Positions 1-16,338 of a stretch of DNA of 17,834 nt are shown in pieces. How positions within the stretch are numbered: position 1 is the stretch's first letter; the number at the start of each line of letters is the position of its first letter. This DNA comes from Pelomyxa schiedti (taxonomy: Eukaryota; Protista; Evosea). The stretch lies in contig JAHLWZ010000381.1 of assembly GCA_020536535.1 (NCBI GenBank), positions 662 through 18,495 of the forward strand, in the 5' to 3' direction. Both the position numbers and the translations under genes were made by a program. The notes under the pieces are model-generated. The model was not told the DNA's origin. It saw only the letters and a list, made by a program, of their open reading frames with translations, and did not search any database.

Positions 1-102
1 TGCACCCCGTGGCCGATGGTCTTGTAGAAAACGCCTTTTTTTTCCGTCTCAGTTCCTCGTCTCTGGACTGAGAAAACTAATAAACCCGATAAAAAGTGTG
101 CA

Positions 103-136
103 CACTTGGGCAGTCCCAACACTTGGGCAGTCCCAA
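103..136. repeat. perfect tandem duplication of a 17-bp motif (CACTTGGGCAGTCCCAA x2) just upstream of the eIF2-alpha coding start
   Basis: Read directly: copy 1 at 103-119 and copy 2 at 120-136 are identical. Confidence 0.85.
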
Positions 137-160
137 TCGTGGCGGCTATTTGTTGCGAGA

Positions 161-343
161 ATGGCGGATGCATCGCCGTCGCGTGGTACCGTCGAGAGTG
201 CGTCCCACAGCAGTTGTACAACCATTATGGGAGAGTCGTCGCCTGATACGCGCACAGCTGTGGAGCCTCAGGGCGACACCAGATTCCGTGAGTGGGCCGA
301 AGAAAACCGCCAACTATTGAATTGTCGTTTCTACGAGAACGAG
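161..343 (+). CDS. EIF2S1: eIF2-alpha (translation initiation factor 2 alpha subunit), exon 1. It ends ...LLNCRFYENE, which matches the canonical N-terminus MPGLSCRFYQHK. The start codon is uncertain: the in-frame ATG at 161 and the ATG at 227 both give an N-terminal extension.
   Basis: In-frame translation MADASPSRGT...RQLLNCRFYENE followed by donor GTTTTG at 344. The CRFY motif and the downstream exons align to eIF2-alpha as recalled from memory. Confidence 0.6.
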
Positions 344-411
344 GTTTTGTGTTTTGGTTTTGGTTTTGGTTTTGGTTTTGGTTTTGGTTTTGGTTTTGGT
401 TTTGTTTTTGG
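344..411. repeat. (GTTTTG)n microsatellite, about 11 units with 9 perfect units at 351-404, inside intron 1 of eIF2-alpha
   Basis: Read directly. The six-frame ORFs that show FGFGFG or FWFWFW are translations of this repeat. Confidence 0.95.
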
Positions 412-448
412 GATTCAAAAATATATCTTGAAACAAACTTTGCTGCAG

Positions 449-523
449 TGGCCAGAGGTGGAGGAGTGCGTCTTGGCTACTGTTACTAGTGTTACTGATT
501 TGGGTGCATTTGTGGAACTCCCG
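449..523 (+). CDS. EIF2S1: eIF2-alpha exon 2 (WPEVEECVLATVTSVTDLGAFVELP), the start of the S1 domain
   Basis: Acceptor CTGCAG at 448. Aligns to [25 protein letters not shown]. Phase 0 is preserved from exon 1. Donor GTAGTT at 524. Confidence 0.7.
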
Positions 524-589
524 GTAGTTACCTGTTTTTTTTTTTTCCCCTGTGTGTTGTCTAACGACGGTTTGGCCAATCTTTGTTAG

Positions 590-1946: not shown

Positions 1947-2237
1947 CTATGTCTCAACCTTGTCCTTCTCCTCCGTGTCCTTGTCAGCCTCTTTCATTTT
2001 ATGGACCGCCTCTGAGACCCTCGAACCACCAAGCTTGCCCCTCTCGTGTGCGGTAAGTGGCTCATGAGCTTTTTGCTTCTCCAATATATCCTCTATAGCA
2101 TGCTTCTCTCCACCCAACTCCTCTGCCCTTTGCGCCGCCTTGTAGGCCTTTCCGCCAAGCACCCCAGCTTCCTGTCGGCTCAGGGTCTCTCCAGATTCCT
2201 TCTTCTCTAGTATCTCTTGCACTTTTGGATCATCCAT
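1947..2237 (-). CDS. 96-aa hydrophilic small protein with repeated hydrophobic-GG motifs (VLGGKAYKAAQRAEELGG and HERGKLGGSRVSEAV) and an acidic tail. It resembles Con-6/KGG-type stress or conidiation proteins.
   Basis: The ORF is intronless and starts at a true ATG at 2237 (the six-frame track extends it to an upstream GTG). Its composition and motifs resemble Con-6 (HERRVLGGYKATL...), recalled from memory. Confidence 0.5.
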   Translation of the reverse strand: MDDPKVQEILEKKESGETLSRQEAGVLGGKAYKAAQRAEELGGEKHAIEDILEKQKAHEPLTAHERGKLGGSRVSEAVHKMKEADKDTEEKDKVET

Positions 2238-3173
2238 TTCTTCCCTACACAGCACCGCTCACAGATTGTCTGATGCTTACTTCTTGGCTGTTTGTTTTGT
2301 GGGCTAACTTGCTTGCTTTCTTCTTTACTCTCACCTTCTTCAACTAGTTGTTTGTCCTTAAGTGGTGTTGTTATTTTTCATTGTCTATTTGTCCCGTCTG
2401 CCACACAACCAGTAGTCACGTCATCTGTGCACTTTTTAAAACGATCAAAAGTTTTAACTGCAACTGATCGTTCCTCGAATCGGTTCTCTTGTCTTGGAAA
2501 CAAAACAAAAAAAACCCAAGCCGTTCGGCAGTAGGCACCGCGACCTTCAAAAACAAAAGAAACAAAAAGTGCGTGTGGGTTATATCCGGTTTTTTGGTCC
2601 ATGTTGTGTTTGTGTTTTTTTTTTTTTTTCCCTTTGAACGATGTGACACAAACGGAGGTGACGTACCCACCCATAATGCGCTGGAGATATCATTGCAATC
2701 CTCCTGTTCGTGTTTGCCTTCCTTGTTGCAGTTCTGGCTGTTCTTGGCTACCTTGCCCACCGATTCGCTGGCAAGGCCTAAACTCAAGACAAAACCAATC
2801 CCATAAGCACGCCAACCTAGTTGGTGCTGCCTTGTTTATGCACTTGTTGGCTAGGGAGTACAACGTCCCTAAACCAGCCAAATGAAAACAAGTGGTACTA
2901 ATAGATCTATGACAACGTGATAGACCATTGGCTTTTGTGGTTGGGACCAACGATCTCCGAGCTCGCACTACCAGGGGAGAAAATAGCAATAGCTCCTGCT
3001 CCAACTTAGTCATGCCCATTACATAGAACGGTGCACCTTTTTCAGTGTCGTTTCGGCGGCGTAAAAACGAAGATTCGGGCTACCGTCTGGCGGTTTTTTT
3101 AAAAAAAAATTAAGAAAACAAGCAACAAAACAAGCAAATTAAACAAAACAACAAAAAACCTCGGCTTCGAAAC
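2238..3173. promoter_or_regulatory. divergent intergenic region between the minus-strand small gene and the + strand NACHT-TPR gene. It contains a T17 tract (about 2614-2630) and an A-rich leader at 3095-3165. It is a probable bidirectional promoter and 5' UTR region.
   Basis: No convincing coding potential. The ORFs here are low-complexity K- or F-rich. Homopolymer tracts are present. Confidence 0.3.
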
Positions 3174-3308
3174 ATGGCAGCGAGTGAGAGGGGGGTGTTT
3201 AGCGACCACGTGTTTTTCCTTCTGGATCTTCCGGCTCCCAACAAAAAAAGTGTGACGCAAATCATACGAGACTATGGGGGAGAAGTCTCTTCGATGCCGT
3301 CAAAGATG
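3174..3308 (+). CDS. NACHT-TPR gene exon 1, the first half of the BRCT domain (MAASERGVFSDHVFFLLDLPAPNKKSVTQIIRDYGGEVSSMPSKM)
   Basis: ATG at 3174 and strong donor GTGAGT at 3309. Shows the BRCT pattern (hydrophobic core and the GG motif). Confidence 0.65.
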
Positions 3309-6300
3309 GTGAGTGAAACGTTTTGGATTTTGTAGTAAGTTTTGAGTCTGAGTTGATTTGTTTAGGTTACACATGTTGTGGTTAGGCCTGATGATTTGAG
3401 CAGTAATTCATTCAAAGTTCAAGCGATTCTCAAAAAGAACCCAGCAATGCAAGCTGTTCTCGAGACGTGGGTGCAAGATAAAACGAGAGGTGCCAGGAAG
3501 GTGGCACCAAAGCCAAAAGCTCCACCACCTCCACCTACACCTGCCTTTGTTCCACCAGAGGATGACACTATGTCCATGATCAGTGTCAGGACAACTTCGT
3601 CAGTGGCTTCTTCCGCGTCTGCTCTTGCACAAGTTGTTCCAGCGAAACCTGTCCCAGTACCTACTGTAACAATGGTCTTGCCAACTTCAGGTTTTTTGGG
3701 AAAATAAACTGTAACCCGACTTATGCTCCACAGGGCCAAATACTGGAGATTTCCGGCTTGCTCTTTTTGGTGTACACTTTAGACCAGGGCCAGGATTTAA
3801 GCTGAAAATAGGTTCCGTTACAGCAACGGAATACGAGTTCCATAGTAGCTCTTCTGTTATTGTAAATGTACCTCCTTGCACGTATGTTCCCTTCAATGCA
3901 ACAATAAGTCTGAAAGTCTTTAGGGTGCCTCCCGGAACTGTTCCTATACACGCCACAAATGACAATGGGCGCCACTATGGTTTTCCAATGGAGTTCCGTT
4001 TTTATGGTATTTTGTTAAAAAAAACCTATTCCTTCCTCACTAATGAATGAATAGATGCTGGTGCCGGCCAACTTTCCCAGTCAGTTGAACAAAAGGTTCT
4101 TGTGGGTGGTGAGTTCCTTCTACATTAACTTGCTGTCAGATTGCCATTCTCCGTGGGCAGCTTACAAACGTCCGAAGGGCCATTTCTAATATCCAACAAA
4201 CTGAAATCGATTTGAGGACGCAGCTTGCTCAACTCACTGATTTGAAACTATTGGAAGAGCTGGAACCCGAGGAGGTTGAATATATCTTTTGTGTGGAGAC
4301 TTTTTAAGGATTTTAGGTACCTCCTGAGCAAGCTGTGGCAGCTACAGAGAAACCGGCACCTCTTCGACATGAGGAGTTTGAGAGGGAAATTAGGATCTTC
4401 ATTTCCAGTCCATTCAGGGACATGAAGGAGGAGCGAGAGAAGATTGTGTGTTGCTTGTATTTCCTTGTCTCAATTTCCTTACGTTTAACACCATCTACCA
4501 TAGGTTAAACTTGTCATCCCCAAAGTACGCAAGTTATGTATGTCATTAGATGTTGCTGTCAGCTATGTAGATCTAAGATGGTACCTTTTTACTTCTTTAT
4601 TTTGTCTCACGTTTCTTTTTAGGGGTGTCACTGGGGCGCAAAGTGAGCAAGCCACTATGCTTTTGATGTGTCTAAGAGAAGTTGCCAAGTCAAATGTATT
4701 TGTGGGACTTTACGGGGAGCGTTACGGATGGGCAATTTCCAATGAGGGTGACACAAGTAACAACGACCTTCTAAGTCGCTCCTTTGATCTTGCTGCACGT
4801 GAATTCCCGTGGATTAACGAATACAGGGACAGAAGTGTTACTGAACTCGAGATGCGAATGGTACTGGTTTCTATACTGCTTTGCCATGTTCTGATCGTAA
4901 TCAGCTTCTTGGGCATAAATATGATGGTTCTAATAAACCTGCATGGTTCTATCTCCGTGATCCGTATTTCATCGAAGAAGTACCCAAAGAGCAAAGACAT
5001 CTCTTTGTGTCTGAAGGCCCAACTGCAAGTAGAAAGTTATCCACACTCAAGACAGATGTGCATAAAGCTGGACATCCTGTAAAGGACTACCTTCGAGCTG
5101 ATCAGATGGCCGAATTTATGTTTGAGGACTTAAAACAATATGTTGCTAAGAAGTATCCCGAGGTTGACCTACATTTTATCACTCTGAAATTGACCTGTTC
5201 CCAGGGTATGTCACTCAGTGACGAAGAACGTGAAGACCTCCGACATAAGCTCACTTCGCGAAACCTCACCCGTGTATACCTACCAAATGAAAGTAACTTC
5301 CTGGAACTTGACAAATTTGTCTCAAGTGAGAAGGAGTTACCTATGGTCATTGTTGGAGGGGTAGGGAGCAACAAATCCCTCTCCCACATTTAATATGCAC
5401 ATAGGGTGGCAGCGGCAAGTCTGCTTTGATGGCCAACTGGGTGATGAGACACAAGGTACTCAAATAATCATTTTCTCGTTAATATGATAAGGAGCACCAC
5501 CCCGAAGACGTAATTGCATTACACTATGTAGGCTGTTCGCCAGCATCAACGAATTATGCTTTCTTGCTTGGCAGGCTTATGCGGCTGGTACACGCCACTT
5601 TTACCACAGTGAAATTTACTCCATTAGATATCAGAACAACTTGGTGCCGCTGTCGATCTTCCATCTGATCAAAGCAAAACCCCTCTTGCATTTGTTACCT
5701 GGCTTTCCAACCTTTCAGTAGTAAATGTCAACAACCGCCGTATTGTGAGTTTTCTTCTCTTGCGCTTTTATCCAACTAAATTATTCAGATTGTGGTTATC
5801 GATGGTCTTAATAAGTTGGATGAACGAGATAATGCGCAAGAATTATTGTGGTTCCCTCAGTAAGCCAATATTGTCATCTTTATATGCGTTCTTAGTTTTC
5901 AAAAGAACTTTCCCGAGGTTCATGAGTGTCATAGTAACAACAGCTCCGATCCAAAGGATTGCGCATACCCTCAAAGTACCAAAGCCTTCCTTTGGTATTC
6001 AATTTACGCTTTGTAGAAACGCAACTGCCCAACAATGGACCTTGCTCTACTTGAGGAAGCAGAGCGCAAATCTTTTGTCCGAATGTACTTGAACCAGCGT
6101 GCAAAGAAGTTATCTGATCAGCAAGAATTTATGATTGCTTCCGCTGAGCAAACAGCTAATCCCAGGTTCGATTTATTTGGAGACTTAGACTTTTTTTTAT
6201 GCACTGTAGATTCTTACAGACACTCCTTGATGATATTGCAGTATTCGGGGAGCACGAAGCACTCGAAAAACGGATTAAGCAATGTCTTGCAGCGAAGAAC

Positions 6301-8904
6301 ACATCTAAGCTATATGAGCTTCTTCTCAACAGACTTGAATCGGACTATGACCCTGCAAAGAAGGGAATAGTGAAGCTATTCATGGCTTTAATTGGTGCAT
6401 CTAGACGTGGTCTCGATCTAGAAAACGAGGTTTCCGTATTGCTCGAGCAGAGTGGGATCACGCCTGATGAATGGTGCCCCTTTCCACTTCCGCTTTGTCT
6501 TCTGCCCTCTTACACTTGCCACTGCTAAACTTTTAATTACCAATTTAAGGTCCCCTCTGTTTGTAGTCATCGAGGAGCTTTTTATATCTATGAGAGGTAT
6601 ACTGAGCTTCGCAAACGAGGATATTGCTAAGGCTGCAAGATCTGTCTTCCTTTGGGATAAAACAATTAGAAACCAATTTCATCTTAAGATAGCAAATTTC
6701 TTCTCTGGTATACAAGGCTTTACAGAAAGAAAGGTTTCCATCCCAAAAAAAAAAAAAATCAAATTCCTAACTAAAACAAATCAAAAGCTTGAAGAGTTAC
6801 CTTACCAGTTGGAGATGGCCGAAGAATGGCCAAAATTAGTTGCTCTTCTCTGTGATGCAACTCTCTTTGATAAACTCTTCACACCTACAACCAAGTTTGA
6901 CCTGGTACATCTAGAGCCAAAATATTTTGTCTTATTTATGATCAATCCAGTTCCATTGGGTTCGACTGTGTGAAGGCAATGTGCCAGGATTTGATATTTG
7001 TGCCCCGTTTTTGGATAAAGTGTCTCGGAGTATATTCCCACCTGACCTTATCCCAGCTGATTTCTGTTATAAGTAAGTCATTACTGAAACATGACCCGCT
7101 AAAAAACATTACCCATAGGGTTGGCCGGTGCTTTGACGAAATGTCAAAGATTAAAGGAGCCGAGGTAATGTACCAAAAAGCTATTGAGTTATACTATGCC
7201 ACATCCATGCCTCTTGAAGTCGCCAAAGTCAAACGATACTTAGCACAGCTGTACCACATGACCAGCAGGTTTGTCATACCCACCTCGTTTGTTGGTCAAT
7301 TTTTGAAGGAGCGACAAAGCTGAAGCAATGCTGAAGGATCTCACTGAAATTTACGAAAAGGAGAAGGGTCCTGATGATATTGAGATAGCAACTACGTTAA
7401 ACAGTTTGGGAAGTCTATATGTTGACCTTTGCCAGTAAACTGTTCATGACAAGAAGTCAACTATTTACCTTTTTCACAGGGGACCAAGTGCACATCCTGT
7501 TCTAGAACGAGCTTTGCGAATATGTAAGTGACCTTTCCAGGCTTTCTAAGCGTTAAACTACAACAAGGCGAGGCACAAGTCGGTCCTGATCACAATATTA
7601 CTGCTGATATCGCTTATACTCTTGGTGCTTTATATCATTACGAGCGCGACTTACTTCCCAAAAATCTCGAAAAATCGGAAGAATTTCTCAAGGTACCTCT
7701 CCACTCACTAATACAAGTCTTACATGTGACTTAGCGAGCACTGAATATCAAAGAAAAGACATTTGGCTACTACCACCCAGATGTTGCGTGGGTGCTCAAT
7801 AAACTGGGGTGTGTGTACATGGAACAAGATCAGTATAATGATGCTGAAGAGTGCTTTACTGTATGTGGCACTCCTCATCGAGCCTCAGCACTAACTTCCC
7901 TTTAACAGATGGCACTAGAAATTCGAGAAATCTCCCTTGGACCAAAGCACGCTTCCGTAGCACAATCACTGGAAAATGTACTAACACTATTCGCCCTTCA
8001 GGAACGCTACACAACTGCCGAAGACTGTGGCAGAAGGTTGACTATAATAGTGCAATCAGTCCGCTAATGCTTATCTCTCTATAGAGCACTTGACATTCTC
8101 TCTGAAACCTTTGGAGAAAATAGCTTCCAAGTGAGCAGCATATTGCTTCGAGTGGGTGCCCTCATGTTTGTAATGGAGAAGAAACCTCAAGGGACACAAG
8201 ACCTGACTCGCGCAATTGCAATTCGCACAGCGCTTTTTGGACCAGGTCGGTGACGTGCTCTCCATTTGCTTTACTCAAACCCCCCGCCCCCGCCCTCTTC
8301 CAGATCATCCACACACAAAGGAGGCAAAGCTGACCCTGGAGGAGCTGGTGGCACCACCCAAGCCGGAACCGCCATCGATCAGGGAGCAGCCCAAGGCCCC
8401 ACCCCCGCCGCCACCCCCGCCTCCTCGCGCCTTCGTGGCCCCGCCGCCGCCACCCCCAACGCCCGGCGGTGCACCGGGCGGAATCCCGCCGCCCCCGCCG
8501 CCTCCACCTCCGCCGCCTCCCCCTCCTTCATCTGGAAAGCCGCCGCCCAAGACGAAGGTCACTGCTGCTGTGGCCCTGGAGAAGACTGAGAGTGTGTCGC
8601 TTGAGGATGCGATTCAGAAACAGACCGGGCTCCACCACGTCACGGAGGCGAATGATAGGTCCAGCGCCAGGTTGATAATCTCTCTTTCTTCACATATGTA
8701 TTCCTGCCACTTACGGATATTCACACTAGCCGGAATGCAGCAGCCATGGCTGGACTCAAGACCCGTAGGATGGTTGAAGTGAAGGGCAAAGCCAAAGCCC
8801 CCAGGTCCACACTGGCACAGTTCTTGCAAGCAAACAAGGCCACAACCCAGTTCACACAGCAACCAGTACTGGATGTCAAGCCGACGATGGACAAGAAGAG
8901 CTGA
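3174..8904 (+). CDS. span of a multi-exon gene (at least 20 exons) encoding BRCT, IPT/TIG-like, coiled-coil, DUF4062, NACHT NTPase, TPR array, polyproline and WH2-like domains. It is an NPHP3-like STAND protein.
   Basis: A continuous in-frame exon chain with 19 introns of 36-76 nt. The domain motifs were read from the translation. Stop TGA at 8902-8904 and AATAAA at 8907. Confidence 0.75.
3366..3690 (+). CDS. exon 2: the second half of the BRCT domain (VTHVVVRPDD...) plus a Pro/Ser-rich linker
   Basis: Acceptor TTGTTTAG at 3365 after a 57-nt intron. Open frame to the donor at 3691. Confidence 0.6.
3734..4006 (+). CDS. exon 3: IPT/TIG-like beta-sandwich domain (PNTGDFRLALFGVHFRPGPGFKLKIGSVTATEYEFHSSSSVIVNVPPCTYVPFNATISLKVF...FRFY)
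   Basis: A 91-codon open frame with no Met, so it is absent from the ORF track. It is bounded by a 43-nt intron (3691-3733) and donor GTATTT at 4007. It shows the IPT/TIG sequence pattern. Confidence 0.5.
4080..4108 (+). CDS. exon 4, a small exon (VQLNKRFLWV); the acceptor choice is uncertain
   Basis: This is the only phase-compatible connection between exon 3 and exon 5. Donor GTGAGT at 4109. Confidence 0.35.
4161..4274 (+). CDS. exon 5: coiled-coil segment (LTNVRRAISNIQQTEIDLRTQLAQLTDLKLLEELEPEE)
   Basis: Acceptor GTGGGCAG at 4160. Heptad-like composition. A 42-nt intron follows. Confidence 0.55.
4317..4445 (+). CDS. exon 6: the start of DUF4062 (…EFEREIRIFISSPFRDMKEEREKI)
   Basis: The IFISSPFRDM motif matches the NPHP3-type DUF4062 N-terminus VFISSTFRDM. 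Confidence 0.7.
4504..4580 (+). CDS. exon 7: DUF4062 (VKLVIPKVRKLCMSLDVAVSYVDLRW)
   Basis: A 58-nt intron upstream and a 42-nt intron downstream. VDLRWG is a conserved DUF4062 motif. Confidence 0.7.
4623..4860 (+). CDS. exon 8: DUF4062 core (GVTGAQSEQ...CLREV...FVGLYGERYGW...VTELEMRM)
   Basis: GERYGW and TELE are hallmark DUF4062/NPHP3 motifs. The exon is 79 codons plus a split Trp codon. Confidence 0.75.
4905..5360 (+). CDS. exon 9: the linker into the NACHT domain (…AWFYLRD…ELPMVIVGG)
   Basis: 152 codons in phase 0. Ends in the first half of the P-loop. Confidence 0.75.
5405..5455 (+). CDS. exon 10: NACHT Walker A (GGSGKSALMANWVMRHK), which completes GGGGSGKS
   Basis: A 44-nt intron upstream and a 36-nt intron downstream. 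Shows the GxxxxGKS P-loop. Confidence 0.8.
5492..5587 (+). CDS. exon 11 (EHHPEDVIALHYVGCSPASTNYAFLLGRLMRL)
   Basis: Aligns to the NPHP3-type segment after the P-loop. Donor GTACAC gives a 40-nt intron. The alternative 19-nt intron was rejected. Confidence 0.6.
5628..5744 (+). CDS. exon 12 (ISEQLGAAVDLPSDQSKTPLAFVTWLSNLSVVNVNNRRI)
   Basis: Strong donor GTGAGT at 5745. Confidence 0.6.
5789..5859 (+). CDS. exon 13: NACHT Walker B (IVVIDGLNKLDERDNAQELLWFP)
   Basis: Shows the hhhhDGLxxLDE pattern. Strong donor GTAAGC at 5860. Confidence 0.75.
5906..5975 (+). CDS. exon 14 (QTFPRFMSVIVTTAPIQRIAHTLK), the WLP..LP..VrvIvTtR-type NACHT motif
   Basis: A phase-2/1 junction across a 46-nt intron. A 41-nt intron follows. 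Confidence 0.6.
6017..6165 (+). CDS. exon 15 (KRNCPTMDLALLEEAERKSFVRMYLNQRAKKLSDQQEFMIASAEQTANP)
   Basis: In-frame chain. Resembles the NPHP3/NWD-type region ...SKPQSANPLYL. Confidence 0.6.
6210..6473 (+). CDS. exon 16 (RFLQTLLDDIAVFGEHEALEKRIKQCL...VLLEQSGITPDEW)
   Basis: A 44-nt intron upstream. Shows the conserved ...LLxELRVFGxxE-like motif. Confidence 0.6.
6550..6960 (+). CDS. exon 17 and possibly one more exon: the helical region leading into the TPR array (SPLFVVIEEL...KLEELPYQLEMAEEWPKLVALLCDATLFDKL...). The internal exon structure is not resolved. It contains an A13 tract encoding KKKK.
   Basis: A single long open frame. LPYQLxxAxxWxxL resembles the NPHP3/TEP1-type LPYHL..AGEW motif. 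Confidence 0.5.
7000..8245 (+). CDS. TPR array of kinesin-light-chain/NPHP3 type, with at least 6 TPRs over several exons. Examples: AIELYYATSMPLEVAKVKRYLAQLY; LKDLTEIYEKEKGPDDIEIATTLNSLGSLY; ALNIKEKTFGYYHPDVAWVLNKLGCVYMEQDQYNDAEECF; ALEIREISLGPKHASVAQSLENV; ALDILSETFGENSFQVSSILLRVGALMF. Exact exon boundaries were not derived.
   Basis: A repeating 34-aa pattern, A..L.NLA.LY...G.Y.EAE.L..RAL.I.EK..G..HP.VA, in successive short ORFs joined by GT..AG introns. Confidence 0.65.
8304..8670 (+). CDS. penultimate exon: polyproline tracts (PPPPPPPPP...PPPPPPPPPPPPPPP) followed by a verprolin/WIP-type WH2-like motif (SLEDAIQKQTGLHHVTEANDRS)
   Basis: Phase-1 junction from the last TPR exon (donor GTCGGT at 8246, a 58-nt intron). 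The Pro-rich, FH1-like tract and the ...L(K/H)(K/H)VxxxNDRS WH2 consensus are both present. Confidence 0.55.
8730..8904 (+). CDS. terminal exon (SRNAAAMAGLKTRRMVEVKGKAKAP...MDKKS*), with stop TGA at 8902-8904
   Basis: A 59-nt intron (8671-8729), an in-frame stop, then AATAAA. Confidence 0.5.
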
Positions 8905-8906
8905 GG

Positions 8907-8912
8907 AATAAA
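8907..8912 (+). promoter_or_regulatory. polyadenylation signal AATAAA, 3 nt after the stop of the NACHT-TPR gene. A second AATAAA lies at 8947-8952.
   Basis: Read directly. Confidence 0.6.
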
Positions 8913-9132
8913 ATGCCATGGATTGTATTGTGAGGATTAACTACCTAATAAACTCTTGTGTTGCAACCTCAATCCACATGAACAATTACCAAGTTCATTC
9001 TTCTCCACGAAAGTACTTCCTCAAGGGAAGTTCCCCAACAAAAAAAGCCAACCGCCCATTTTTGAGGTTTTTTCCTGCTACGAAAGTCTTCGCGTTGTTA
9101 ACAGATTTAATTTGATCGAATTCTGCCCGATC

Positions 9133-9556: not shown

Positions 9557-9850
9557 GTTACACCTGCCTTTTTAGATGCCTGTACATCAAATAGCAGAAT
9601 TATGGAATGCTCAGATTTTGTGTATAATACTGTGAAGGAGGTTGTACTGAGCACAGAACCTCAGATATACTTGCCACCACAAGAACCAGACCCTGTACCT
9701 CCTGCGCCTGCTGCCTCCAGGGATACTTATATTCGAAGGGAAGTCATTGTTCCCTACAAATCCAAAGATGACCCTTTTAATGAAGCGGGTGCCTGGCTCG
9801 TTCAACACCATCTACTGCAAAAGCCATCATGGTTAGATCATTTTCGTTTC
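9557..9850 (+). CDS. PARP4: PARP4-like exon 3, 3' end approximate (…MECSDFVYNTVKEVVLSTEPQIYLPPQEPDPVPPAPAAS…)
   Basis: Acceptor TGAATTAG at 9556 with a 69-nt intron. Aligns to PDFIWKSIREKRLLDVKNYDPYKPLDITPPPDQ. Confidence 0.5.
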
Positions 9851-9882
9851 TAAGTATCCCTCTTTTCTAATTCGTTTCTAGC

Positions 9883-10191
9883 TTGGTGAAACTAGAATTG
9901 CATACCCGCAGCTCTTCTGATAATGCTTGGCGTGTGTATGAAGAAGTTGTGCCATGCCTTTCCACTGTGCCACCACAGACAAATACTCAGGGGAAATCAA
10001 AAAAGACCATCTCCCAACCAACACACAGGAGGCTGAGCCATCTCTTAGCCTCGGCCTCAGAGGCTATTTCTGTGTACTCCGCTCTCTATGAGAATTATAC
10101 CAACGTTGAAGGCTACACCCGCGTTGGAATACCTCCGTTTTCTTCCTTGGGATCAGATTTGGTATATGCTTCTCCAACGTTCTTTTTTTAA
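9883..10191 (+). CDS. PARP4: PARP4-like coding segment, exon boundaries not derived (…SEAISVYSALYENYTNVEGYTRV…)
   Basis: Aligns to the PARP4 segment SEDASEYFENYIEELKKQGF, recalled from memory. Confidence 0.35.
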   Translation: MVKLELHTRSSSDNAWRVYEEVVPCLSTVPPQTNTQGKSKKTISQPTHRRLSHLLASASEAISVYSALYENYTNVEGYTRVGIPPFSSLGSDLVYASPTFFF

Positions 10192-10711
10192 CTATTAAAA
10201 GATAGGTAATGGATTAAGTCCCGGGTCTGTTCTTCCTGCAATGATATCACAGCTTGTGCAAGTCATTTTTAACGGTCAGTGATGATAGAACTCTGTTTTC
10301 GAATAACATTTTTCAGCTTCATCTTCTAAGTTTGCTGGCTTGAATACTATGACACTGGATATATCATTAGACACTCTAAATGAGGCAGAGGCTATTCTAT
10401 GGTCCCTGCAAGAGCTTAGCCTTTCCAATCAACAAGGCTCTCCGAAATTCATTGAGGTATGGCACTTGAACTCGATCTTTCTCTGTGTAAATTATTTTAA
10501 CAGCTAAATGATAAACTTTCCTCGTTGCTCCCATTTAGTGATCAGCACATAACCTCAAATGAAGCATTGCTTGAGAAATATGAGTTCATCCAAACTCTAA
10601 AAGATTCTCTTTGCCTGAATGAAGGTACCCACTAAACGTGCATATTTAAGCTAATTTTCACCAGGGATCACACTTCCAGGCAGTTCTGTACAGTCCAACT
10701 CCATCATAGAT

Positions 10712-10960
10712 ATGCATTACCGCAGTCTCAATTGTCGTTTGGAATATACAGATGATCCTGCTGTGAGAGAGCTAACTTCCCGTGTCCAAGCCTCTCTAAC
10801 ATCAGCCCCTACCTTGCTACACGTGGAACATGTGTTTCATGTTGCGCGCCCTTCGGAAAATGAAGTCTTTTCTAATGTGGGTAATGTGAAACTTCTATTT
10901 CACGGTACCAAAGTGGAGCGGGTAGCTGGTATTCTTTCACATGGACTGGTTTTACCAAAG
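10712..10960 (+). CDS. PARP4: PARP catalytic domain, part 1 (…NVKLLFHGTKVERVAGILSHGLVLPK), with the donor-loop His-Gly-Thr motif. The 5' boundary is approximate.
   Basis: LLFHGTxxxxxxxILSxGL matches the PARP signature LLWHGSRxxNxxGILSQGL. Donor GTTTCC at 10961. Confidence 0.65.
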
Positions 10961-11096
10961 GTTTCCCTCAAAGCAATTCGATCTATTTTCTCAGTGCCTT
11001 AGGTTTCTGTAACTAAACTTGGAATCAAGAGAGTGGATGCTGGCCAACTTGGGGTGCACATTTGTTTCGTTTAGTTTCGTTTTACATGCCCTACAG

Positions 11097-11285
11097 AATG
11101 GTATATACTTTGCAACAGATGCCGCTGTAAGTGCTAAATACTGTAACTCTTTTGGGGAAACGTCGTTCCTATTGGTGGCTTCAGTTTCCTTAGGCAAATC
11201 TATGGATACACCAGCTCCACGAGTAGGAACCACTGCCGACACTTTACCCAACGGGTATCTGGAAATTCGAAGGGAATTTATTCTC
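11097..11285 (+). CDS. PARP4: PARP catalytic domain, part 2 (NGIYFATDAAVSAKYCNSFGETSFLLVASVSLGKSMD…). The 3' boundary is approximate.
   Basis: Acceptor CCTACAG at 11096. GIYFAxxxSKSxxYC is the PARP signature. Ser sits at the position of the catalytic Glu (LLVASVSLG against LLLGEVALG). Confidence 0.65.
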
Positions 11286-11309
11286 TAATATGTTTCTTCA
11301 GATTCCACA

Positions 11310-11810
11310 GTGTGCACTCCATCCCGAGGCATACCGACCCCAACTCGGCCTTCGAGGATGAGGAATTCTGTGTACCTCTCCCAATTTGTGAAACTGCATC
11401 ATGACCACCGACAGGTATTTGATAGCCGACAAATAATCCTGGAATACATTATCCAACTTACAAAAGCCCCTAAATCAATACCATCAACACTACCAATGCC
11501 GTCTTTTCCACAAGTTTCAATCTCTGATCCAACCACCGCCCCAGACGATCTGAAGTCTATTTTTCTTGCACCACCTTCTCTCAGCGTTTCACCCACGAAA
11601 AAGCAATCTCCTGTATACCCGGTTTTGATTGGTCAAGGCGGAGTACGTTTTTCAGTTGAAAGTACAACTGTGGCAGCCAGAATACTTGATTTAGTGGCTG
11701 AAGTTGTAGTTATTCAACATTTTAGCAATACTGGCGTTGTAGCTTGTGAAGCGAAGTATATATGCCCAATAGATAGCCATGGTTGTATATCTGCCCCCAC
11801 AATACTCTAA
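11310..11810 (+). CDS. PARP4: VIT (vault protein inter-alpha-trypsin) domain region (…VYPVLIGQGGVRFSVESTTVAARILDLVAEVVVIQHFSNTGVVACEAKYICPIDSHGCISA…). Exon boundaries were not derived.
   Basis: Aligns to PARP4 VPLEDVHIKGRIIDTVAQVIVFQTYTNKSHVPIEAKYIFPLDDKAAVCGF, recalled from memory. Confidence 0.5.
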   Translation: MCTPSRGIPTPTRPSRMRNSVYLSQFVKLHHDHRQVFDSRQIILEYIIQLTKAPKSIPSTLPMPSFPQVSISDPTTAPDDLKSIFLAPPSLSVSPTKKQSPVYPVLIGQGGVRFSVESTTVAARILDLVAEVVVIQHFSNTGVVACEAKYICPIDSHGCISAPTIL

Positions 11811-12377
11811 CCTCTCCTAGCTGCTGTTTGTGCTTTCGAATGTTACATAAATGACAAGCATGTAGTGGCACACATAGAAGAAAAAGGTCTTTTTCTTTTT
11901 TTATTGTGCCAATTGAAACAATGTCAAATATTAGGTAAGGCTCGAAAAGAATACAAAGAAGGTACACGTTTGTGCTTGACTTTTTTGTAACTTATAAGAA
12001 TACAGCAATTGAGCAAGGGCATGGAGCGTAGGTAAGCCAGATTCCTTCTACTTCTTTACCTCTATTAGGTATTTACTCGAAGAAGAATCCCCAGATGCAT
12101 GGTGCATGTCTCTTGGAAATCTTCCAGGCATATCTTGCCATGATGTTCTTACTTCCTCTTATTCTTCAAAGCAAACGCCGAAATTGTTGTTAAAATTACA
12201 TATGTGGAAGACCTGGCTTTAGCATCTAATGGGGTAAGTCCGTCAAAAGTAGTGAAATTTGTGTCTAATCAACAATACTCAGATTACCTTTACCTTACCT
12301 GCGGCTCTTGCCGGCCGTGAGGACCGTCTCAATAGTGTAACAACAACCCAAACGGCAGTTGCAACAGTTATCAAAGT

Positions 12378-12662
12378 ATGCTCCAAACAACTAGGGTAGG
12401 TATCTCATTTAGTCAGGCTCATTCCAGCGCGCCGTCATTCCATTTGGAAGCGGGAATTACTATGCCCTATGACATCACTGGCATCACTTCACCATCTCAT
12501 TTGAAAGATGTTCAAGTGAAACACACCAACACAAAGGCAACTGTCAGGGCTTTAATGACGGAACTTACAGCAGACTTTGTACTACTTATTTCTATCAAGA
12601 ACGCCCATGAACCCCGAATGTGGTTGGAAGTAAAGGACTCATCTCTACTGCTTTTTACTTAA
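12378..12662 (+). CDS. PARP4: VIT C-terminal region (…ITMPYDITGI…ALMTELTADFVLLISIKNAHEPRMWLEVKDSS…). Exon boundaries were not derived.
   Basis: Aligns to PARP4 SIEMPYVIEFIF…GFSLHIGLSAAYLPRMWVEKHPE, recalled from memory. Confidence 0.5.
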   Translation: MLQTTRVGISFSQAHSSAPSFHLEAGITMPYDITGITSPSHLKDVQVKHTNTKATVRALMTELTADFVLLISIKNAHEPRMWLEVKDSSLLLFT

Positions 12663-12671
12663 CACTTTCAG

Positions 12672-13148
12672 GTGGATGATACACAAAACTGGGCAGCGAT
12701 GATTTCTATATCCCCAGATTTTCAAAATTATATACAGTCTGCCTGTCAGAGCAGATCTGAGGTCATATTCGTGGTTGACAGGTCCATAAGCATGGCCTCC
12801 AATCTTGCAACTTTACGTTGGGCTCTTCAGGTAATCAGATGGATGATTTTGCACTCTCACGAAACTCAGATACTCATATCCCAACTGGGAAGTGAGGATA
12901 TGTTTAATGTAGTTGGATTTGGATCCCACTTTGAGTCGTTATTTGTACAGTCGCAATCTGCAACTTCCGCCAAACCTGTCGGGTACAGATATGCCCAAAT
13001 GTTACAAGCCACCTTTGGGGGTACTTCCCGTCACCATACCTCCCTCCCCAAGCTTAATCACCTTTTTCAACAGGCACAAATCTTTACTCTGTTCTCAGAG
13101 CAGTGTTTTCTCTTGGTCAATCCAATGACTTCTCTTCAAGAACAGTAA
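12672..13148 (+). CDS. PARP4: von Willebrand factor A (VWA) domain with the MIDAS motif DRSIS (…SEVIFVVDRSISMASNLATLRWALQV…DMFNVVGFGSHFESLF…MLQATFGGT…). Exon boundaries are approximate.
   Basis: Shows the VWA pattern hhhhhDxSxSM....hh......FnhhxFgs........A..Ggt. Confidence 0.6.
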   Translation: MDDTQNWAAMISISPDFQNYIQSACQSRSEVIFVVDRSISMASNLATLRWALQVIRWMILHSHETQILISQLGSEDMFNVVGFGSHFESLFVQSQSATSAKPVGYRYAQMLQATFGGTSRHHTSLPKLNHLFQQAQIFTLFSEQCFLLVNPMTSLQEQ

Positions 13149-13678
13149 TCCTTCTCACTGATGGCCTTTTTGACATTTTTCCCGTATTGCCCATAGTGAA
13201 AAGGTGGAGAGACTCCTTGTATCTCAGTATTAAATCTGTTTAGTGCCCGGGCTCACACCAAACTATTTACTGTTGGAATCGGGGAGGCATCCAGGCATTC
13301 TATTTGCACCCTTGCACGGATAGGTGGGGGATGCTGTCAGTTCGTTCCATCCAATCCCTCACCCAAACATGAGAAACTGTTGAATCACATGTTAGCACAA
13401 CGAAATCAAAATGTGGCTTCCCTAAATTTGGAACATTCTTATACTGTTTTAGACTTTATCTGGTATAAACATCAAGTGGCACACAACACACACAATTAAG
13501 CAAGTACCCTCTGAAATTTACAATATGTTTCAGAATCAGGTTTTCCTCCAAGACTAGTTTTCCTTTTTCTAACACATTAAAGTCTTATACTATTTATGGT
13601 CTCCTTAGTGGCATATGTAACCAGGTGTCAATTCAGGGGAATATCGGAGCACAGTTTTACCCTCACCCAATAAATTAG

Positions 13679-13874
13679 TGGTAATCGAGAGCAGGGAGTT
13701 TTCCACAACAGTGTCATCAAGTGAACTTACTGCTACACATGGCACATTGATTCACAAACTGGCAGCCAGAGAGCTTATTCGAGATTGGGGGGAAAATTCT
13801 CTCCACGAACAGGATACAGAGCACTTTGTACAAAAAAATAATATGGTTTCAGATGTTATTGCTCTAAGTAAAAA
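13679..13874 (+). CDS. PARP4: PARP4-like exon (…TTVSSSELTATHGTLIHKLAARELIRDWGENSLHEQDTEHFVQKNNMVSDVIALSKK). The acceptor is approximate.
   Basis: Aligns to PARP4 TTELQKTTGTMIHKLAARALIRDYEDGILHENE, recalled from memory. Donor GTATGG at 13875. Confidence 0.55.
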
Positions 13875-13928
13875 GTATGGATATCAAAATACAAAAATGG
13901 AGTTAGGATAGTAATATACTACAAAAAG

Positions 13929-14025
13929 GTATGGCTTCATCACTCCTTTTACTTCTTTTGTGGCAGTGGAAGAGAGAAACCGTAATGACGCCTTAGTTTT
14001 GAAAGCACCTTCAGTGAAAGAGATT
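13929..14025 (+). CDS. PARP4: PARP4-like exon (YGFITPFTSFVAVEERNRNDALVLKAPSVKEI)
   Basis: A 54-nt intron (13875-13928). FTSFVAVE matches PARP4 FTSFVAVEKRDE, recalled from memory. GTA at a codon boundary (14026) gives a phase-0 donor. Confidence 0.55.
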
Positions 14026-14068
14026 GTATCAGAGTCTAAATTTTTGTACTTCCTTTGACTGCCAACAG

Positions 14069-14251
14069 CTGCAAGGCCATGACGTCGATGAAATCAAAGA
14101 AATTGCTTGGGAGCATGACCTTGAACCAGTCCCAAAGAAGGACGAACTTCAGAAACAACGAGATTCAAATTCCTTTTCCATTGCTCTTTATGGTGACCCA
14201 CAGACTGGTATAAAAACTCACCCACACTTTTACCTCCTAAGACATCTCAAG
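14069..14251 (+). CDS. exon entering the Ran-like domain (LQGHDVDEIKEIAWEHDLEPVPKKDELQKQRDSNSFSIALYGDPQTGIKTHPHFYLLRHLK). There is no in-frame ATG, so it is probably a continuation of the PARP4-like ORF through a 43-nt intron (14026-14068).
   Basis: FSIALYGDPQTGIKT-HPHFYLLRHL aligns to Ran [21 protein letters not shown]. The P-loop carries a one-residue insertion that displaces the Lys. Donor GTAAAA at 14252. Confidence 0.65.
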
Positions 14252-14324
14252 GTAAAACAGCTTGGCTAAAACGCATGGTTTTTCCTTCAAATTTGCAACC
14301 CAATCCCCATTTATACAACTACAG

Positions 14325-14660
14325 CTGAGCGGGGAGTTTGAGCACAAATACATTGTAACCCAGGAGCCAGAGCAATTCAAACTGACTCTAAGTACAAATC
14401 GAGGTGCTATCCACTTTAATTTGTACGACATGCCTGGTGTAGCTACCAGCACAGCAACCCCTCCTACTGCCCATGATGGTAGTATAGTCTTCTTTGACGT
14501 TACTTCTCGCGCGTCATATAAAAATCTGCCCATCTGGTACATGAAGGCTGGAAGCACTTCCGGTTCACCTACAAGTCCAGTTGTTGTATTTGTTGGCAAT
14601 AAAGTGGACTGCTCAGAACGGAAACTTCATGCTCGACAAATTGTCTTTCATAAGAAAAAG
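14325..14660 (+). CDS. Ran-like GTPase domain core (LSGEFEHKYIVTQ…RGAIHFNLYDMPGVATSTATPPTAHDGSIVFFDVTSRASYKNLPIWY…VVVFVGNKVDCSERKLHARQIVFHKKK)
   Basis: Collinear with Ran [39 protein letters not shown]…[22 protein letters not shown]…[26 protein letters not shown]. The G4 motif NKVD is conserved. G3 DTAGQ is replaced by DMPGV. Confidence 0.75.
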
Positions 14661-14705
14661 GTATTGGCTCTCCTTTCTCAAGTGTCTTCCTGATTGCCAA
14701 TTTAG

Positions 14706-14728
14706 AATTGCAAGTACTATGACCTAAG
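14706..14728 (+). CDS. 23-nt micro-exon (NCKYYDL), matching Ran NLQYYDIS
   Basis: Flanked by 45-nt and 44-nt introns (donors GTATTG and GTACCT). Confidence 0.6.
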
Positions 14729-14772
14729 GTACCTCCTTTTATGATATCCACTCTTAAGTATTTACTCTTTAG

Positions 14773-14832
14773 TGTTAAATCTTCGTACAACCTGGAGTCA
14801 CCTCTACTAAGTCTTGCCCGGTCCCTTTTATG
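14773..14832 (+). CDS. Ran-like exon (SVKSSYNLESPLLSLARSLL + C), matching Ran [21 protein letters not shown]
   Basis: The G5 motif SAK is retained as SVK. A 40-nt intron (14833-14872) restores the frame into the next exon. Confidence 0.55.
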
Positions 14833-14872
14833 GTTGTGCACAATCCTTCTCCCTGAATTTAATTCTTCTCAG

Positions 14873-16297: not shown

Positions 16298-16338
16298 GTA
16301 AGTAATTCATCAACCTATCAATGTTTCAACCCCTTAAG

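What the first reader, a model, noticed from the sequence alone, without database searches (positions are those of the whole stretch)
8340..8670. FH1-like polyproline tracts followed by a WH2-like actin-binding motif at the tail of a NACHT-TPR protein
The GC-rich CCGCCGCC low-complexity DNA encodes PPPPPPPPP and PPPPPPPPPPPPPPP runs, which are candidate profilin or SH3 ligands. About 40 residues downstream sits EDAIQKQTGLHHVTEANDRS. This fits the WH2 consensus LxxxIxxGxxLKKVxxxNDRS of verprolin/WIP apart from the His-for-Lys substitution.

The antisense strand gives a poly-Gly ORF, which is an artefact.

WH2 is unusual in a STAND protein. The C-terminus after the intron (AMAGLKTRRMVEV) may carry a second, weaker basic-hydrophobic motif.
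Basis: partly seen in the sequence, partly recalled or inferred. Interest (0 to 1): 0.5.

Follow-up and report, generated by a model that had tools for sequence, protein, structure and literature searches.

The report
Proline-rich tail on an amoebal NLR-like protein
The GC-rich stretch is a real, conserved coding exon: a disordered, polyproline-rich tail at the end of an amoeba-type NADase-NACHT-TPR "NLR-like" protein, and its short helical motif resembles an actin-binding WH2 motif only weakly and fails the standard WH2 tests.

Summary
Window 8304-8670 is the second-to-last exon of a 30-exon, 1455-aa gene (3174-8904, + strand). It encodes proline runs of 9, 6 and 14 residues, followed by SLEDAIQKQTGLHHVTEANDRS.

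The TGA at 8251 lies inside a 58-nt intron, so the region is not 3' UTR. The Mastigella eilhardi transcript protein P0122 is colinear at 60% identity and has the same tail.

The protein reads BRCT, TIG, DUF4062 (NIR NADase domain), NACHT, NPHP3-type TPR, then the tail. Of 109 long homologues fetched, only the 7 closest eukaryotic ones have a polyproline run, always in the tail. The ~100 others, those inspected or source-named being bacterial, have no such run.

The WH2 assignment is not established:
- Pfam WH2 gives no hit on any of five family tails.
- My own WH2 profile recovers WH2 chains that were not in its seed (Cobl, Spire, INF2, VopL) from PDB. It scores the window tail at -1 bit.
- Profile-against-profile tests do show a weak similarity in the correct register (hhalign P=0.0016 against 0.62 for reversed WH2). 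The family profile also scores real WH2s above shuffled ones (p=2e-6).

The best-conserved element is the basic helix after the last intron.

Most likely this is a polyproline docking arm with a divergent WH2-like motif. Actin binding is unproven. It is a new variant of a known kind, of moderate interest.

The parts
3174..8904 (+). Whole gene: 30 exons, 29 GT-AG introns (36-76 nt, median 44), 1455 aa. Domains: BRCT (3189-3437), TIG (3660-3972), DUF4062/NIR (4392-4755), NACHT (5340-6094), NPHP3 helical (6140-6432), TPR (7222-8347), tail (8348-8901).
   Evidence: Gene model has no internal stop. It is colinear with Mastigella eilhardi P0122 at 60% identity. Pfam domains; coordinates.
8246..8303 (+). 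58-nt intron (GTCGGT...TTCCAG), phase 1.
   Evidence: Splicing joins ...ALFGP to DHPHTKEAKLTLEEL, the KLC/NPHP3-type TPR motif. This aligns with P0122 ...LHGADHPATLEAVRALQEL.
8304..8670 (+). Second-to-last exon: end of the last TPR repeat, the proline-rich region and motif 1.
   Evidence: GC 0.69. AF2 pLDDT is below 50 over most of the tail after the last TPR helix.
8357..8383 (+). PKPEPPSIR, identical in the Mastigella orthologue. It marks the start of the tail.
   Evidence: Global alignment; coordinates.
8399..8425 (+). Polyproline run 1 (9 P). It is flanked by K-A...R-A-F, which fits the generic SH3 patterns [RK]xxPxxP and PxxPxR.
   Evidence: The SH3 patterns are from general knowledge and are not a test.
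8441..8458 (+). Polyproline run 2 (6 P).
8486..8527 (+). Polyproline run 3 (14 P), preceded by GGAPGGI.
   Evidence: P0001 has APGGIPLPPPPP and P0129 has GPGGVPPPPPPPPP at the same place.
8597..8662 (+). Motif 1, SLEDAIQKQTGLHHVTEANDRS. This is the WH2-like motif: a hydrophobic pair at i and i+4, then L-H-H-V six residues later, then NDRS.
   Evidence: Family consensus is l-e-a-e-I-Q-x-y-s-x-g-L-[basic]-x-E-x-N-D-K/R-S. hhalign against WH2 gives P=0.0016. The standard WH2 profile tests are negative.
8671..8729 (+). Last intron, 59 nt (GTTGAT...CACTAG), phase 2.
8734..8796 (+). Motif 2, NAAAMAGLKTRRMVEVKGKAK. A basic amphipathic helix and the best-conserved element of the tail: D[KR][ST]xA...A..AM[LAV]G.[KR]..[KR][MIL].
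   Evidence: Alignments A1 and A2. In a regex scan, motif 2 occurs only in the tail-bearing eukaryotic homologues. AF2 gives a low-confidence helix here.
8803..8829 (+). Motif 3, RSTLAQFLQ. Shared only with Mastigella (RSSLAQFLQ).
8902..8904 (+). Stop codon TGA. AATAAA follows at 8907-8912 and again at 8947-8952.
8305..8562 (-). Antisense 85-aa poly-Gly ORF. It is a mirror artefact of the CCN codons.
   Evidence: The sense strand carries the spliced, conserved protein.

Best explanation
The region encodes the disordered C-terminal tail of an amoebozoan NLR-like STAND protein. The architecture is BRCT, TIG, DUF4062/NIR NADase domain, NACHT, NPHP3-type TPR, then the tail.

The tail is a conserved module of short linear motifs:
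1. Polyproline tracts, which would form PPII helices. They are long enough to dock profilin, and their flanks fit SH3-ligand patterns.
2. A short amphipathic helix followed by L-basic-basic and NDR/KS. This is a divergent motif of the WH2/beta-thymosin kind.
3. A basic amphipathic helix with a polybasic end.

Proposed mechanism (inferred, not shown): the tail tethers the sensor end of the protein to the actin/profilin cortex. When the NACHT module oligomerises, several tails are clustered into a multivalent platform for profilin-actin and G-actin.

Shown here: the coding status, the splicing, the conservation and the architecture. Inferred: every binding partner.
For: - The gene model is intact, and its orthologue has the same tail.
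- The tail is a shared feature of the closest eukaryotic subgroup. Seven of 109 fetched homologues of >=800 aa have a proline run of 6 or more, always in the C-terminal tail, and these are the eukaryotic ones. Two of them (P0129, P0135) are members of one 90%-identity cluster, so about six are distinct. Motif 2 occurs only in tail-bearing homologues.
- Members come from Mastigella (Archamoebae) and Echinamoeba (Tubulinea).
- AF2 gives a confident TPR (pLDDT >90) and a tail mostly below 50, with weak helices exactly over motifs 1, 2 and 3. This is the usual picture for fold-on-binding motifs.
- hhalign of the family tail profile against 13 WH2s places motif 1 on the WH2 in the right register (24 columns, P=0.0016). 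The reversed-WH2 control gives P=0.62 over 1 column.
- An HMM of the 8 tails scores real WH2/Tbeta4 sequences at up to 9.2 bits. Ten of 13 land on the motif-1 region, and 8 of those span the helix-to-L-basic part in register. Scores exceed shuffles (Mann-Whitney p=2e-6) and reversed sequences (p=9e-4).
- Established knowledge: profilin binds runs of about 8-10 or more prolines. Polyproline directly upstream of a WH2 is the layout of WASP/WAVE, WIP/verprolin, Ena/VASP and CAP.
Against: - Pfam WH2 gives no hit at E<=10 for five family tails.
- A WH2 profile that is validated on PDB scores the window tail at -1.0 bit (p~0.19). The family's best is 2.7 bits. Unseeded true WH2s score 13-45 bits.
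- PDB searches with the tails return no WH2.
- Pairwise Smith-Waterman tests against known WH2 regions are mostly at noise level.
- The L-K-K-V position is poorly conserved across the family: LHHV, LRHI, LVRN, LARN, LKRA, LKKN.
- The hhalign probability is only 16%.
- A search of 1.84 billion representative proteins with the 105-aa tail found nothing. The motifs are therefore lineage-restricted and have no annotated relatives.
One search shows that the profile built from them works.
Confidence: 0.4

Rival explanations
1. The tail is a generic proline-rich adaptor with no direct actin contact. The polyproline acts as a stiff PPII spacer and as a ligand for SH3, WW or other readers. The conserved basic amphipathic helix with its polybasic end targets acidic membranes, acts as a nuclear localisation signal (the protein starts with BRCT), or binds calmodulin. 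Under this reading, the resemblance of motif 1 to WH2 is a by-product of being a short amphipathic helix followed by basic residues.
For: - All standard WH2 tests are negative.
- Motif 2 and the basic end (KKKMK, KSKKK, KGKAK) are better conserved than motif 1.
- The run flanks K-A-P9-R-A-F fit SH3 class I/II patterns (sequence).
- BRCT and TIG domains lie at the N-terminus.
Against: - The similarity to WH2 is directional and in register. A composition artefact should not give that: forward P=0.0016 against reversed 0.62, and forward WH2s beat shuffled and reversed ones.
- No NLS, calmodulin or membrane-binding test was possible.
Confidence: 0.33
2. Motif 1 is a bona fide, functional WH2 or beta-thymosin domain. 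Together with the polyproline it makes the protein a true actin nucleation or elongation factor of the WASP/WIP/VASP kind.
For: - Register-correct profile similarity.
- The window and Mastigella keep the WH2 spacing L-x3-I-x5-L-[HR]-H-[VI].
- CAP1, a bona fide WH2 that the profile recovers from PDB, reads LKHV, so His is tolerated at that position.
- P0001 reads EMQNFERGKLKKNKKQKE against Tbeta4 EIEKFDKSKLKKTETQEK (p~0.008 to 0.012).
- P0129 adds an acidic Trp patch, TWTNEDDDAE, after the motifs.
Against: - It fails Pfam and a validated WH2 profile by more than 14 bits relative to the weakest true WH2s.
- The window has no acidic or Trp region, so it has no VCA.
- Comparison with the VASP FAB and WASP C-helix gave nothing.
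- The L-K-K-V position drifts across the family.
Confidence: 0.12
3. The tail is an intramolecular pseudo-ligand. Its helices fold back into the concave groove of the protein's own TPR sensor and keep the STAND module off until a ligand displaces them.
For: - From general knowledge, TPR domains of the KLC type bind short peptides, and some are auto-inhibited by their own linker motifs.
- The tail follows the last TPR directly.
Against: - AF2 with the family alignment docks nothing on the TPR. Tail pLDDT is below 50, although the alignment has only 6 sequences.
- Long polyproline tracts are not needed for such a role.
- The bacterial homologues inspected work as a family without any such tail.
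Confidence: 0.1
4. The region is not protein-coding: it is 3' UTR after the TGA at 8251, or a CCG microsatellite that gives a chance ORF.
For: - The DNA is GC-rich and of low complexity.
- An in-frame TGA sits at 8251 if the sequence is left unspliced.
Against: - A canonical GT-AG intron of 58 nt, within the range seen in this gene (36-76 nt, median 44), removes the TGA and restores a textbook TPR motif.
- The tail aligns with a transcript-derived orthologue through to the stop codon.
- Proline codons are mixed.
- AATAAA follows the stop at 8904, not the one at 8251.
Confidence: 0.02

Closest known systems
NIR(DUF4062)-STAND-TPR NLR-like proteins: bacterial Avs2-type defence proteins and eukaryotic NPHP3 / TTC41-like proteins
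   Same: The order is the same: N-terminal DUF4062, then a NACHT-type P-loop NTPase with an NPHP3 helical domain, then KLC/NPHP3-type TPRs. The region from DUF4062 through the NACHT and helical domains is about 35% identical to bacterial members. The preprint 10.64898/2026.09.04.749371 reports DUF4062 as an NADase effector in Avs proteins. [quoted passage not shown]
   Different: This subgroup adds BRCT, TIG and a coiled coil in front, and the polyproline and motif tail behind. None of the ~100 other long homologues fetched has a proline run of 6 or more, and the two read in full have no such tail. NADase activity of this protein was not tested.
WH2 / beta-thymosin G-actin-binding motifs next to polyproline (WIP/verprolin, MIM, WASP/WAVE, Ena/VASP GAB, CAP)
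   Same: The layout matches: polyproline, then 20-40 residues later a short amphipathic helix, an L-basic-basic element and, as in WIP/Vrp1/MIM, N-D-R/K-S-A. The profile similarity is weak but in register.
   Different: It fails Pfam WH2 and a validated WH2 profile. It lacks the LLxxI doublet and the Gly at position 8. The window reads LHHV where WH2s read LKKV. Compared with WIP-class motifs it has one extra residue before NDRS. The host protein is a STAND NTPase, not an actin regulator.
Formin FH1 domain
   Same: Several polyproline tracts of 6-14 residues lie in a disordered segment. In principle these are profilin ligands.
   Different: FH1 is defined by its position directly N-terminal to an FH2 domain. 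No FH2 is present anywhere in the protein.
WASP-family VCA region
   Same: A helix-plus-basic motif (V-like) is followed by a second amphipathic helix rich in basic residues, at the extreme C-terminus.
   Different: The window and most family members have no acidic, Trp-containing A region; only P0129 has one. hhalign against the C-helix/FAB set found nothing at motif 2.

Membership tests
WH2 domain (Pfam PF02205) | Significant match to a WH2 sequence profile | tested here: not met
   Pfam gives no hit at E<=10 for the window tail or 4 other family tails. My own 13-sequence WH2 HMM gives the window -1.0 bit (p~0.19 against shuffles), and the family's best is 2.7 bits. The same profile finds unseeded Cobl, Spire, INF2 and VopL in PDB at 13-45 bits.
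WH2 domain (Pfam PF02205) | N-terminal amphipathic helix with hydrophobic residues (LLxxI) that inserts into the actin cleft | tested here: inconclusive
   A hydrophobic pair at i and i+4 is conserved ([LFWY]xxx[IL]). AF2 puts a helix on LEDAIQKQTGLHHVTE, but at pLDDT below 50. The second Leu of the LL doublet is absent.
WH2 domain (Pfam PF02205) | LKKV/T-type motif 6-10 residues after the helix | tested here: inconclusive
   The window has LHHV and Mastigella LRHI at the canonical spacing of 6. Other members have LVRN, LARN, LKRA and LKKN at spacings of 7-8. CAP1's LKHV shows that His is tolerated.
WH2 domain (Pfam PF02205) | Binds monomeric actin | not testable with these tools
   This needs peptide binding assays or a complex prediction with actin.
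Formin (FH1-FH2) | FH2 domain immediately C-terminal to the polyproline region | tested here: not met
   A Pfam scan of the full 1455-aa model finds no FH2. The protein ends 105 residues after the last proline run.
WASP-family VCA | Acidic C-terminal segment with a conserved Trp after the V and C motifs | tested here: not met
   The window C-terminus is basic or neutral (...KGKAKAPRSTLAQFLQANK...MDKKS). Only P0129 has TWTNEDDDAE. The C-helix comparison was negative.
Ena/VASP EVH2 (GAB + FAB + tetramerisation) | FAB-like motif and a C-terminal coiled coil | tested here: not met
   hhalign of the tail profile against the FAB/C-helix set gives P=0.079, on a different segment. No coiled coil follows. 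Pairwise, window against VASP gives p~0.026 before multiple-test correction.
NACHT STAND NTPase (NPHP3 / Avs2-like NLR-like) | NACHT P-loop NTPase with Walker A and Walker B | tested here: met
   PF05729 scores 37 bits against a cut-off of 26.7. Walker A is GGGGSGKS (aa 574-581, split by intron 5361-5404). Walker B is VVIDGLNKLDE (aa 665-675).
NACHT STAND NTPase (NPHP3 / Avs2-like NLR-like) | N-terminal DUF4062/NIR domain and C-terminal NPHP3-type TPR array | tested here: met
   PF13271 scores 54.9 bits (cut-off 24.7). PF24885 TPR_NPHP3 scores 131 bits (cut-off 100). TPR_12 scores 134 bits.
NACHT STAND NTPase (NPHP3 / Avs2-like NLR-like) | NADase activity of the DUF4062 domain; ligand-induced oligomerisation | not testable with these tools
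   Activity is reported for bacterial Avs2 and human TEP1, but not for human NPHP3, Nwd1 or Nwd2 (10.64898/2026.09.04.749371). It is unknown for this protein.

The most novel reading that the evidence does not exclude
An amoebal NLR-like sensor (NIR NADase, NACHT, TPR) carries its own actin-assembly arm: polyproline for profilin-actin, a divergent WH2/beta-thymosin motif, and a basic helix. Ligand-triggered oligomerisation of the STAND core would then cluster several arms and nucleate or capture actin filaments locally. That would couple innate-immune-type sensing directly to the cytoskeleton, for example at phagosomes, through induced proximity. No such coupling turned up in the two literature searches run here.
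Probability: 0.12. Interest if true: 0.75.

Novelty: new variant of a known kind. Interest (0 to 1): 0.4.

Why it matters
DUF4062/NIR-NACHT-TPR proteins have only recently been recognised as NADase-armed NLR-like proteins shared by bacteria and eukaryotes. What their eukaryotic members sense, and where they act, is unknown.

A conserved, lineage-specific polyproline tail with WH2-like and basic motifs is a concrete handle on both questions. It predicts specific partners (profilin, SH3 proteins, actin, acidic membranes) that can be tested with short peptides.

If the actin link held, it would be an unusual output or localisation route for a STAND protein. If it does not, the finding is an ordinary disordered proline-rich tail on a member of a known family.

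Tried and rejected
1. **Homologue search with TPR plus tail including polyproline.** Polyproline words swamped the candidate list and only P0001 came back.
2. **phmmer of the 105-aa tail against 1.84 billion representatives.** Zero hits.
3. **Profile search with five tails against 5.8 billion proteins.** Nothing at E<=10.
4. **Metagenome locus scan with alignment A5.** 600 pattern matches, none confirmed.
5. **VASP FAB / WASP C-helix idea for motif 2.** It came from a remembered resemblance (NAMLARRRK against NAMLGAKNRK). hhalign did not support it and the pairwise tests were marginal, so I dropped it.
6. **IQ motif and CARMIL-type CPI motif (LxHxTxxRPK) readings of motif 1.** Checked by eye. 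Key positions are not conserved across the family, so both were rejected.
7. **Greedy automatic exon chaining.** It skipped exons. I replaced it with junction-by-junction modelling scored against P0122. Two of my early junctions were wrong and were corrected to 5976-6016 and 7524-7567.
8. **Mastigamoeba balamuthi as the source.** Rejected. That genome is 60.7% GC with 137-nt introns (PMC8136499). The window is about 43% GC with 44-nt introns.
10. **AF2 of the last 308 aa.** It gave no confident tail structure and no docking.

Full report
**1. What is in the sequence**

The window is eukaryotic and dense with very short introns. In the frame of ORF 8216-8782 the reported region reads ...EELVAPPKPEPPSIREQPKAPPPPPPPPPRAFVAPPPPPPTPGGAPGGIPPPPPPPPPPPPPPSSGKPPPKTKVTAAVALEKTESVSLEDAIQKQTGLHHVTEANDRSSA....

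The proline runs are 9, 6 and 14 residues long, at 8399-8425, 8441-8458 and 8486-8527. The motif SLEDAIQKQTGLHHVTEANDRS lies at 8597-8662.

Proline codons are mixed (CCG 18, CCC 10, CCA 9, CCT 7), and Tandem Repeats Finder sees only short, imperfect units. The antisense poly-Gly ORF at 8305-8562 exists and is the mirror image of these codons.

**2. It is a coding exon, not 3' UTR**

I built the gene model junction by junction and scored candidate introns against the closest homologue. The result is a gene from ATG 3174 to TGA 8904 on the + strand.

- It has 30 exons and 29 GT-AG introns of 36-76 nt (median 44).
- It encodes 1455 aa with no internal stop.
- The TGA at 8251 lies inside intron 8246-8303.
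- Splicing joins ...AIRTALFGP to DHPHTKEAKLTLEEL, which is the canonical 'LGPDHPxT' turn of a KLC/NPHP3-type TPR.
- Intron 8671-8729 then joins ...NDRSSA to SRNAAAMAGLKTRRMVEVKGKAKAPRSTLAQFLQ...MDKKS*.
- AATAAA follows the stop at 8907 and at 8947.

The best homologue is a transcriptome-derived protein of Mastigella eilhardi (Archamoebae), P0122, 1425 aa. It is colinear with the model from the first to the last residue at 60% identity. Its tail reads ...ELLAPPKPEPPSIR...PPPPPPPP...PPPPP...PPPPPPPPPP...SALRDQIAQRAELRHIIEKSDRSNAREVASAMVGLRCKKMDYKAKSAARSSLAQFLQERKPTVQF....

**3. What the host protein is**

Pfam on the full model gives these domains:

| Domain | Residues |
|---|---|
| BRCT | 6-69 |
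| IPT/TIG | 144-219 |
| DUF4062 | 315-402 |
| NACHT (Walker A GGGGSGKS, Walker B VVIDGLNKLDE) | 569-736 |
| NPHP3 helical domain | 752-834 |
| NPHP3-type TPRs | 131 bits against a cut-off of 100 |

No WH2 and no FH2 is found.

A 2026 preprint (10.64898/2026.09.04.749371) renames DUF4062 as NIR. It reports NIR as an NADase effector of bacterial Avs2-type STAND-TPR defence proteins. It also finds NIR-NLR-like proteins across eukaryotes, including 76% of Amoebozoa.

**4. The tail is a conserved module of one eukaryotic subgroup**

Among the 109 fetched homologues of at least 800 aa, only seven have a run of six or more prolines: P0003, P0005, P0006, P0122, P0124, P0129 and P0135. P0129 and P0135 belong to one 90%-identity cluster, so these are about six distinct proteins. 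In every case the run lies after the last TPR. These are the closest eukaryotic relatives, and they include Echinamoeba exundans. The ~100 other relatives, about 35% identical, have no such run, and the two read in full (P0007, P0016) have no such tail.

MAFFT alignments of the tails (A1 and A2) show three elements:

- **Polyproline**, often preceded by GG[IV].
- **Motif 1**, [LFWY]-x-x-[DE]-[IL]-Q-x(4-6)-L-[basic]-x-E-x-x-[ND]-D-[KR]-[ST].
- **Motif 2**, A-x3-A-x-x-A-M-[LAV]-G-x-[KR]-x-x-[KR]-[MIL], followed by a polybasic end.

It is in fact the best-conserved part of the tail.

AF2 with the six-sequence alignment gives a confident TPR (pLDDT above 90). The tail is mostly below 50. Weak helices fall exactly over motifs 1, 2 and 3, and nothing docks onto the TPR.

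**5. Is motif 1 a WH2?**

*Standard tests say no.*

- Pfam WH2 is silent at E<=10 for the window tail and four other family tails.
- PDB sequence searches with the family profile or with single tails return no WH2 or thymosin chain.
As a positive control it recovers essentially all WH2 chains in PDB. These include ones not in the seed: Cobl at 41 bits, Spire 33, INF2 31, VopL 22 and thymosin beta-9 32.
- That same profile scores the window tail at -1.0 bit (p~0.19 against shuffles), Mastigella at -0.6, and the family's best (P0001) at 2.7.
- Pairwise Smith-Waterman tests are mostly at noise level.

*Profile-against-profile tests show a weak but directional signal.*

- hhalign of the tail profile against the WH2 profile gives one hit: motif 1 on the WH2, in the expected register, over 24 columns (P=0.0016, probability 16%).
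- The same comparison with all WH2 sequences reversed gives P=0.62 over one column.
- An HMM built from the eight tails scores real WH2s above their shuffled versions (Mann-Whitney p=2e-6) and their reversed versions (p=9e-4).
- Ten of 13 WH2s land on the motif-1 region, 8 of them spanning the helix-to-L-basic part in register. Scores are Tbeta4 9.2, VASP GAB 7.7, Vrp1 7.5, N-WASP 6.9, MIM 6.5 and WIP 6.1 bits.

The resemblance is closest to the WIP/verprolin/MIM class (LKKxxTNDRSA) and to beta-thymosin. The accurate label is 'WH2-like', not 'WH2'.

**6. Other readings I tested**

- *FH1:* no FH2 is present.
- *VCA:* the window has no acidic Trp segment. Only P0129 has TWTNEDDDAE.
- *VASP FAB or WASP C-helix for motif 2:* not supported.
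- *IQ and CPI motifs:* key positions are not conserved (by eye).
- *Auto-inhibitory docking on the TPR:* AF2 gives no support, though the alignment is shallow.

**7. Most likely mechanism**

The shown facts are the coding status, the splicing, the conservation, the disorder and the architecture.

The inference is as follows. The tail is a docking arm at the sensor end of an NLR-like STAND protein. Runs of 9 and 14 prolines are long enough to bind profilin (established knowledge), and the flanks fit SH3 patterns. Motif 1 may give a weak G-actin contact, and motif 2 with the polybasic end a second contact with F-actin or an acidic membrane. STAND oligomerisation would multiply these weak contacts.

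I give this actin/profilin-docking reading about 0.4. A non-actin adaptor, NLS or membrane reading gets about 0.33. A true, functional WH2 nucleation module gets about 0.12, auto-inhibition about 0.1, and non-coding about 0.02.

**8. Novelty**

The host family is known. I found no description of a polyproline/WH2-like tail on such proteins in two literature searches, and the NIR preprint does not mention actin. This is a new variant of a known kind, and interest is moderate because the key functional claim is untested.

**9. Source organism**

The closest relatives are amoebozoan. The window is not Mastigamoeba balamuthi: that genome is 60.7% GC with 137-nt introns (PMC8136499), against about 43% GC and a 44-nt median intron here.

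Noticed in passing
window 9557-14200 (+): The next gene downstream starts about 650 nt after the stop. It encodes a PARP catalytic domain (10655-10999 and 11013-11285; Pfam PF00644), a VIT domain (11310-11810; PF08487) and a vWA-like DxSxS segment (VIFVVDRSISM, 12663-13145). This is a PARP4/vault-PARP-like architecture. The 2026 preprints tie the DUF4062/NIR domain to the vault protein TEP1 and discuss a TEP1-PARP4 link. PARP4 also begins with a BRCT domain, as this NIR-NACHT-TPR protein does. The adjacency may be coincidence.
   Followed up: partly
window 14262-16301 (+): A Ras-family, Ran-like GTPase (Pfam Ras). Its Ran-type C-terminal ...ALAPPEV...PLPDEDDD continues in the same open frame into about 330 aa of FG/Ser/Thr/Pro-rich, nucleoporin-like sequence (SLFG, PFG, AFG). 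It is either an unusual Ran-FG fusion or an unrecognised intron or stop.
   Followed up: partly
window 3516-3557 (+): The linker between BRCT and TIG holds a small copy of the start of the tail. It reads KAPPPPPTPAFVPP, against KAPPPPPPPPPRAFVAPPPP at 8393-8452. tblastn of the P0122 tail also touches 3513-3590.
   Followed up: no
whole gene 3174-8904: Intron density is extreme and the introns are tiny: 29 introns in 5.7 kb, 36-76 nt, median 44, all GT-AG. The Walker A loop is split by one of them (5361-5404). Together with about 43% GC, this rules out Mastigamoeba balamuthi as the source, even though the closest homologue is archamoebal.
   Followed up: partly
P0129 / P0135 (1470 aa, metagenome) C-terminus: One family member adds an acidic patch with Trp (KKATWTNEDDDAEIE) after motifs 1 and 2. 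This gives a V-C-A-like order reminiscent of Arp2/3 activators. It is absent from the window protein.
   Followed up: no
P0130, P0133 (105-106 aa; contigs up to 63.5 kb and 530 kb respectively): In public metagenome assemblies, the tail exon of the P0129-type gene is called as a separate small 'hypothetical protein'. Automatic annotation therefore probably detaches this tail from its NACHT-TPR gene. That may be why the combination has gone unnoticed.
   Followed up: no
window 98-589 (+) and 1947-2255 (-): An eIF2-alpha-like N-terminus (CRFYENE...PEVEECVLATVTSVTDLGAFVEL) is interrupted by a (GF)n-coding TG-rich stretch near 350-410, probably an intron. On the opposite strand there is a 102-aa ORF with repeated ...GGK/GGS...E motifs that resemble stress-protein KGG repeats. 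Neither gave a Pfam hit.
   Followed up: partly
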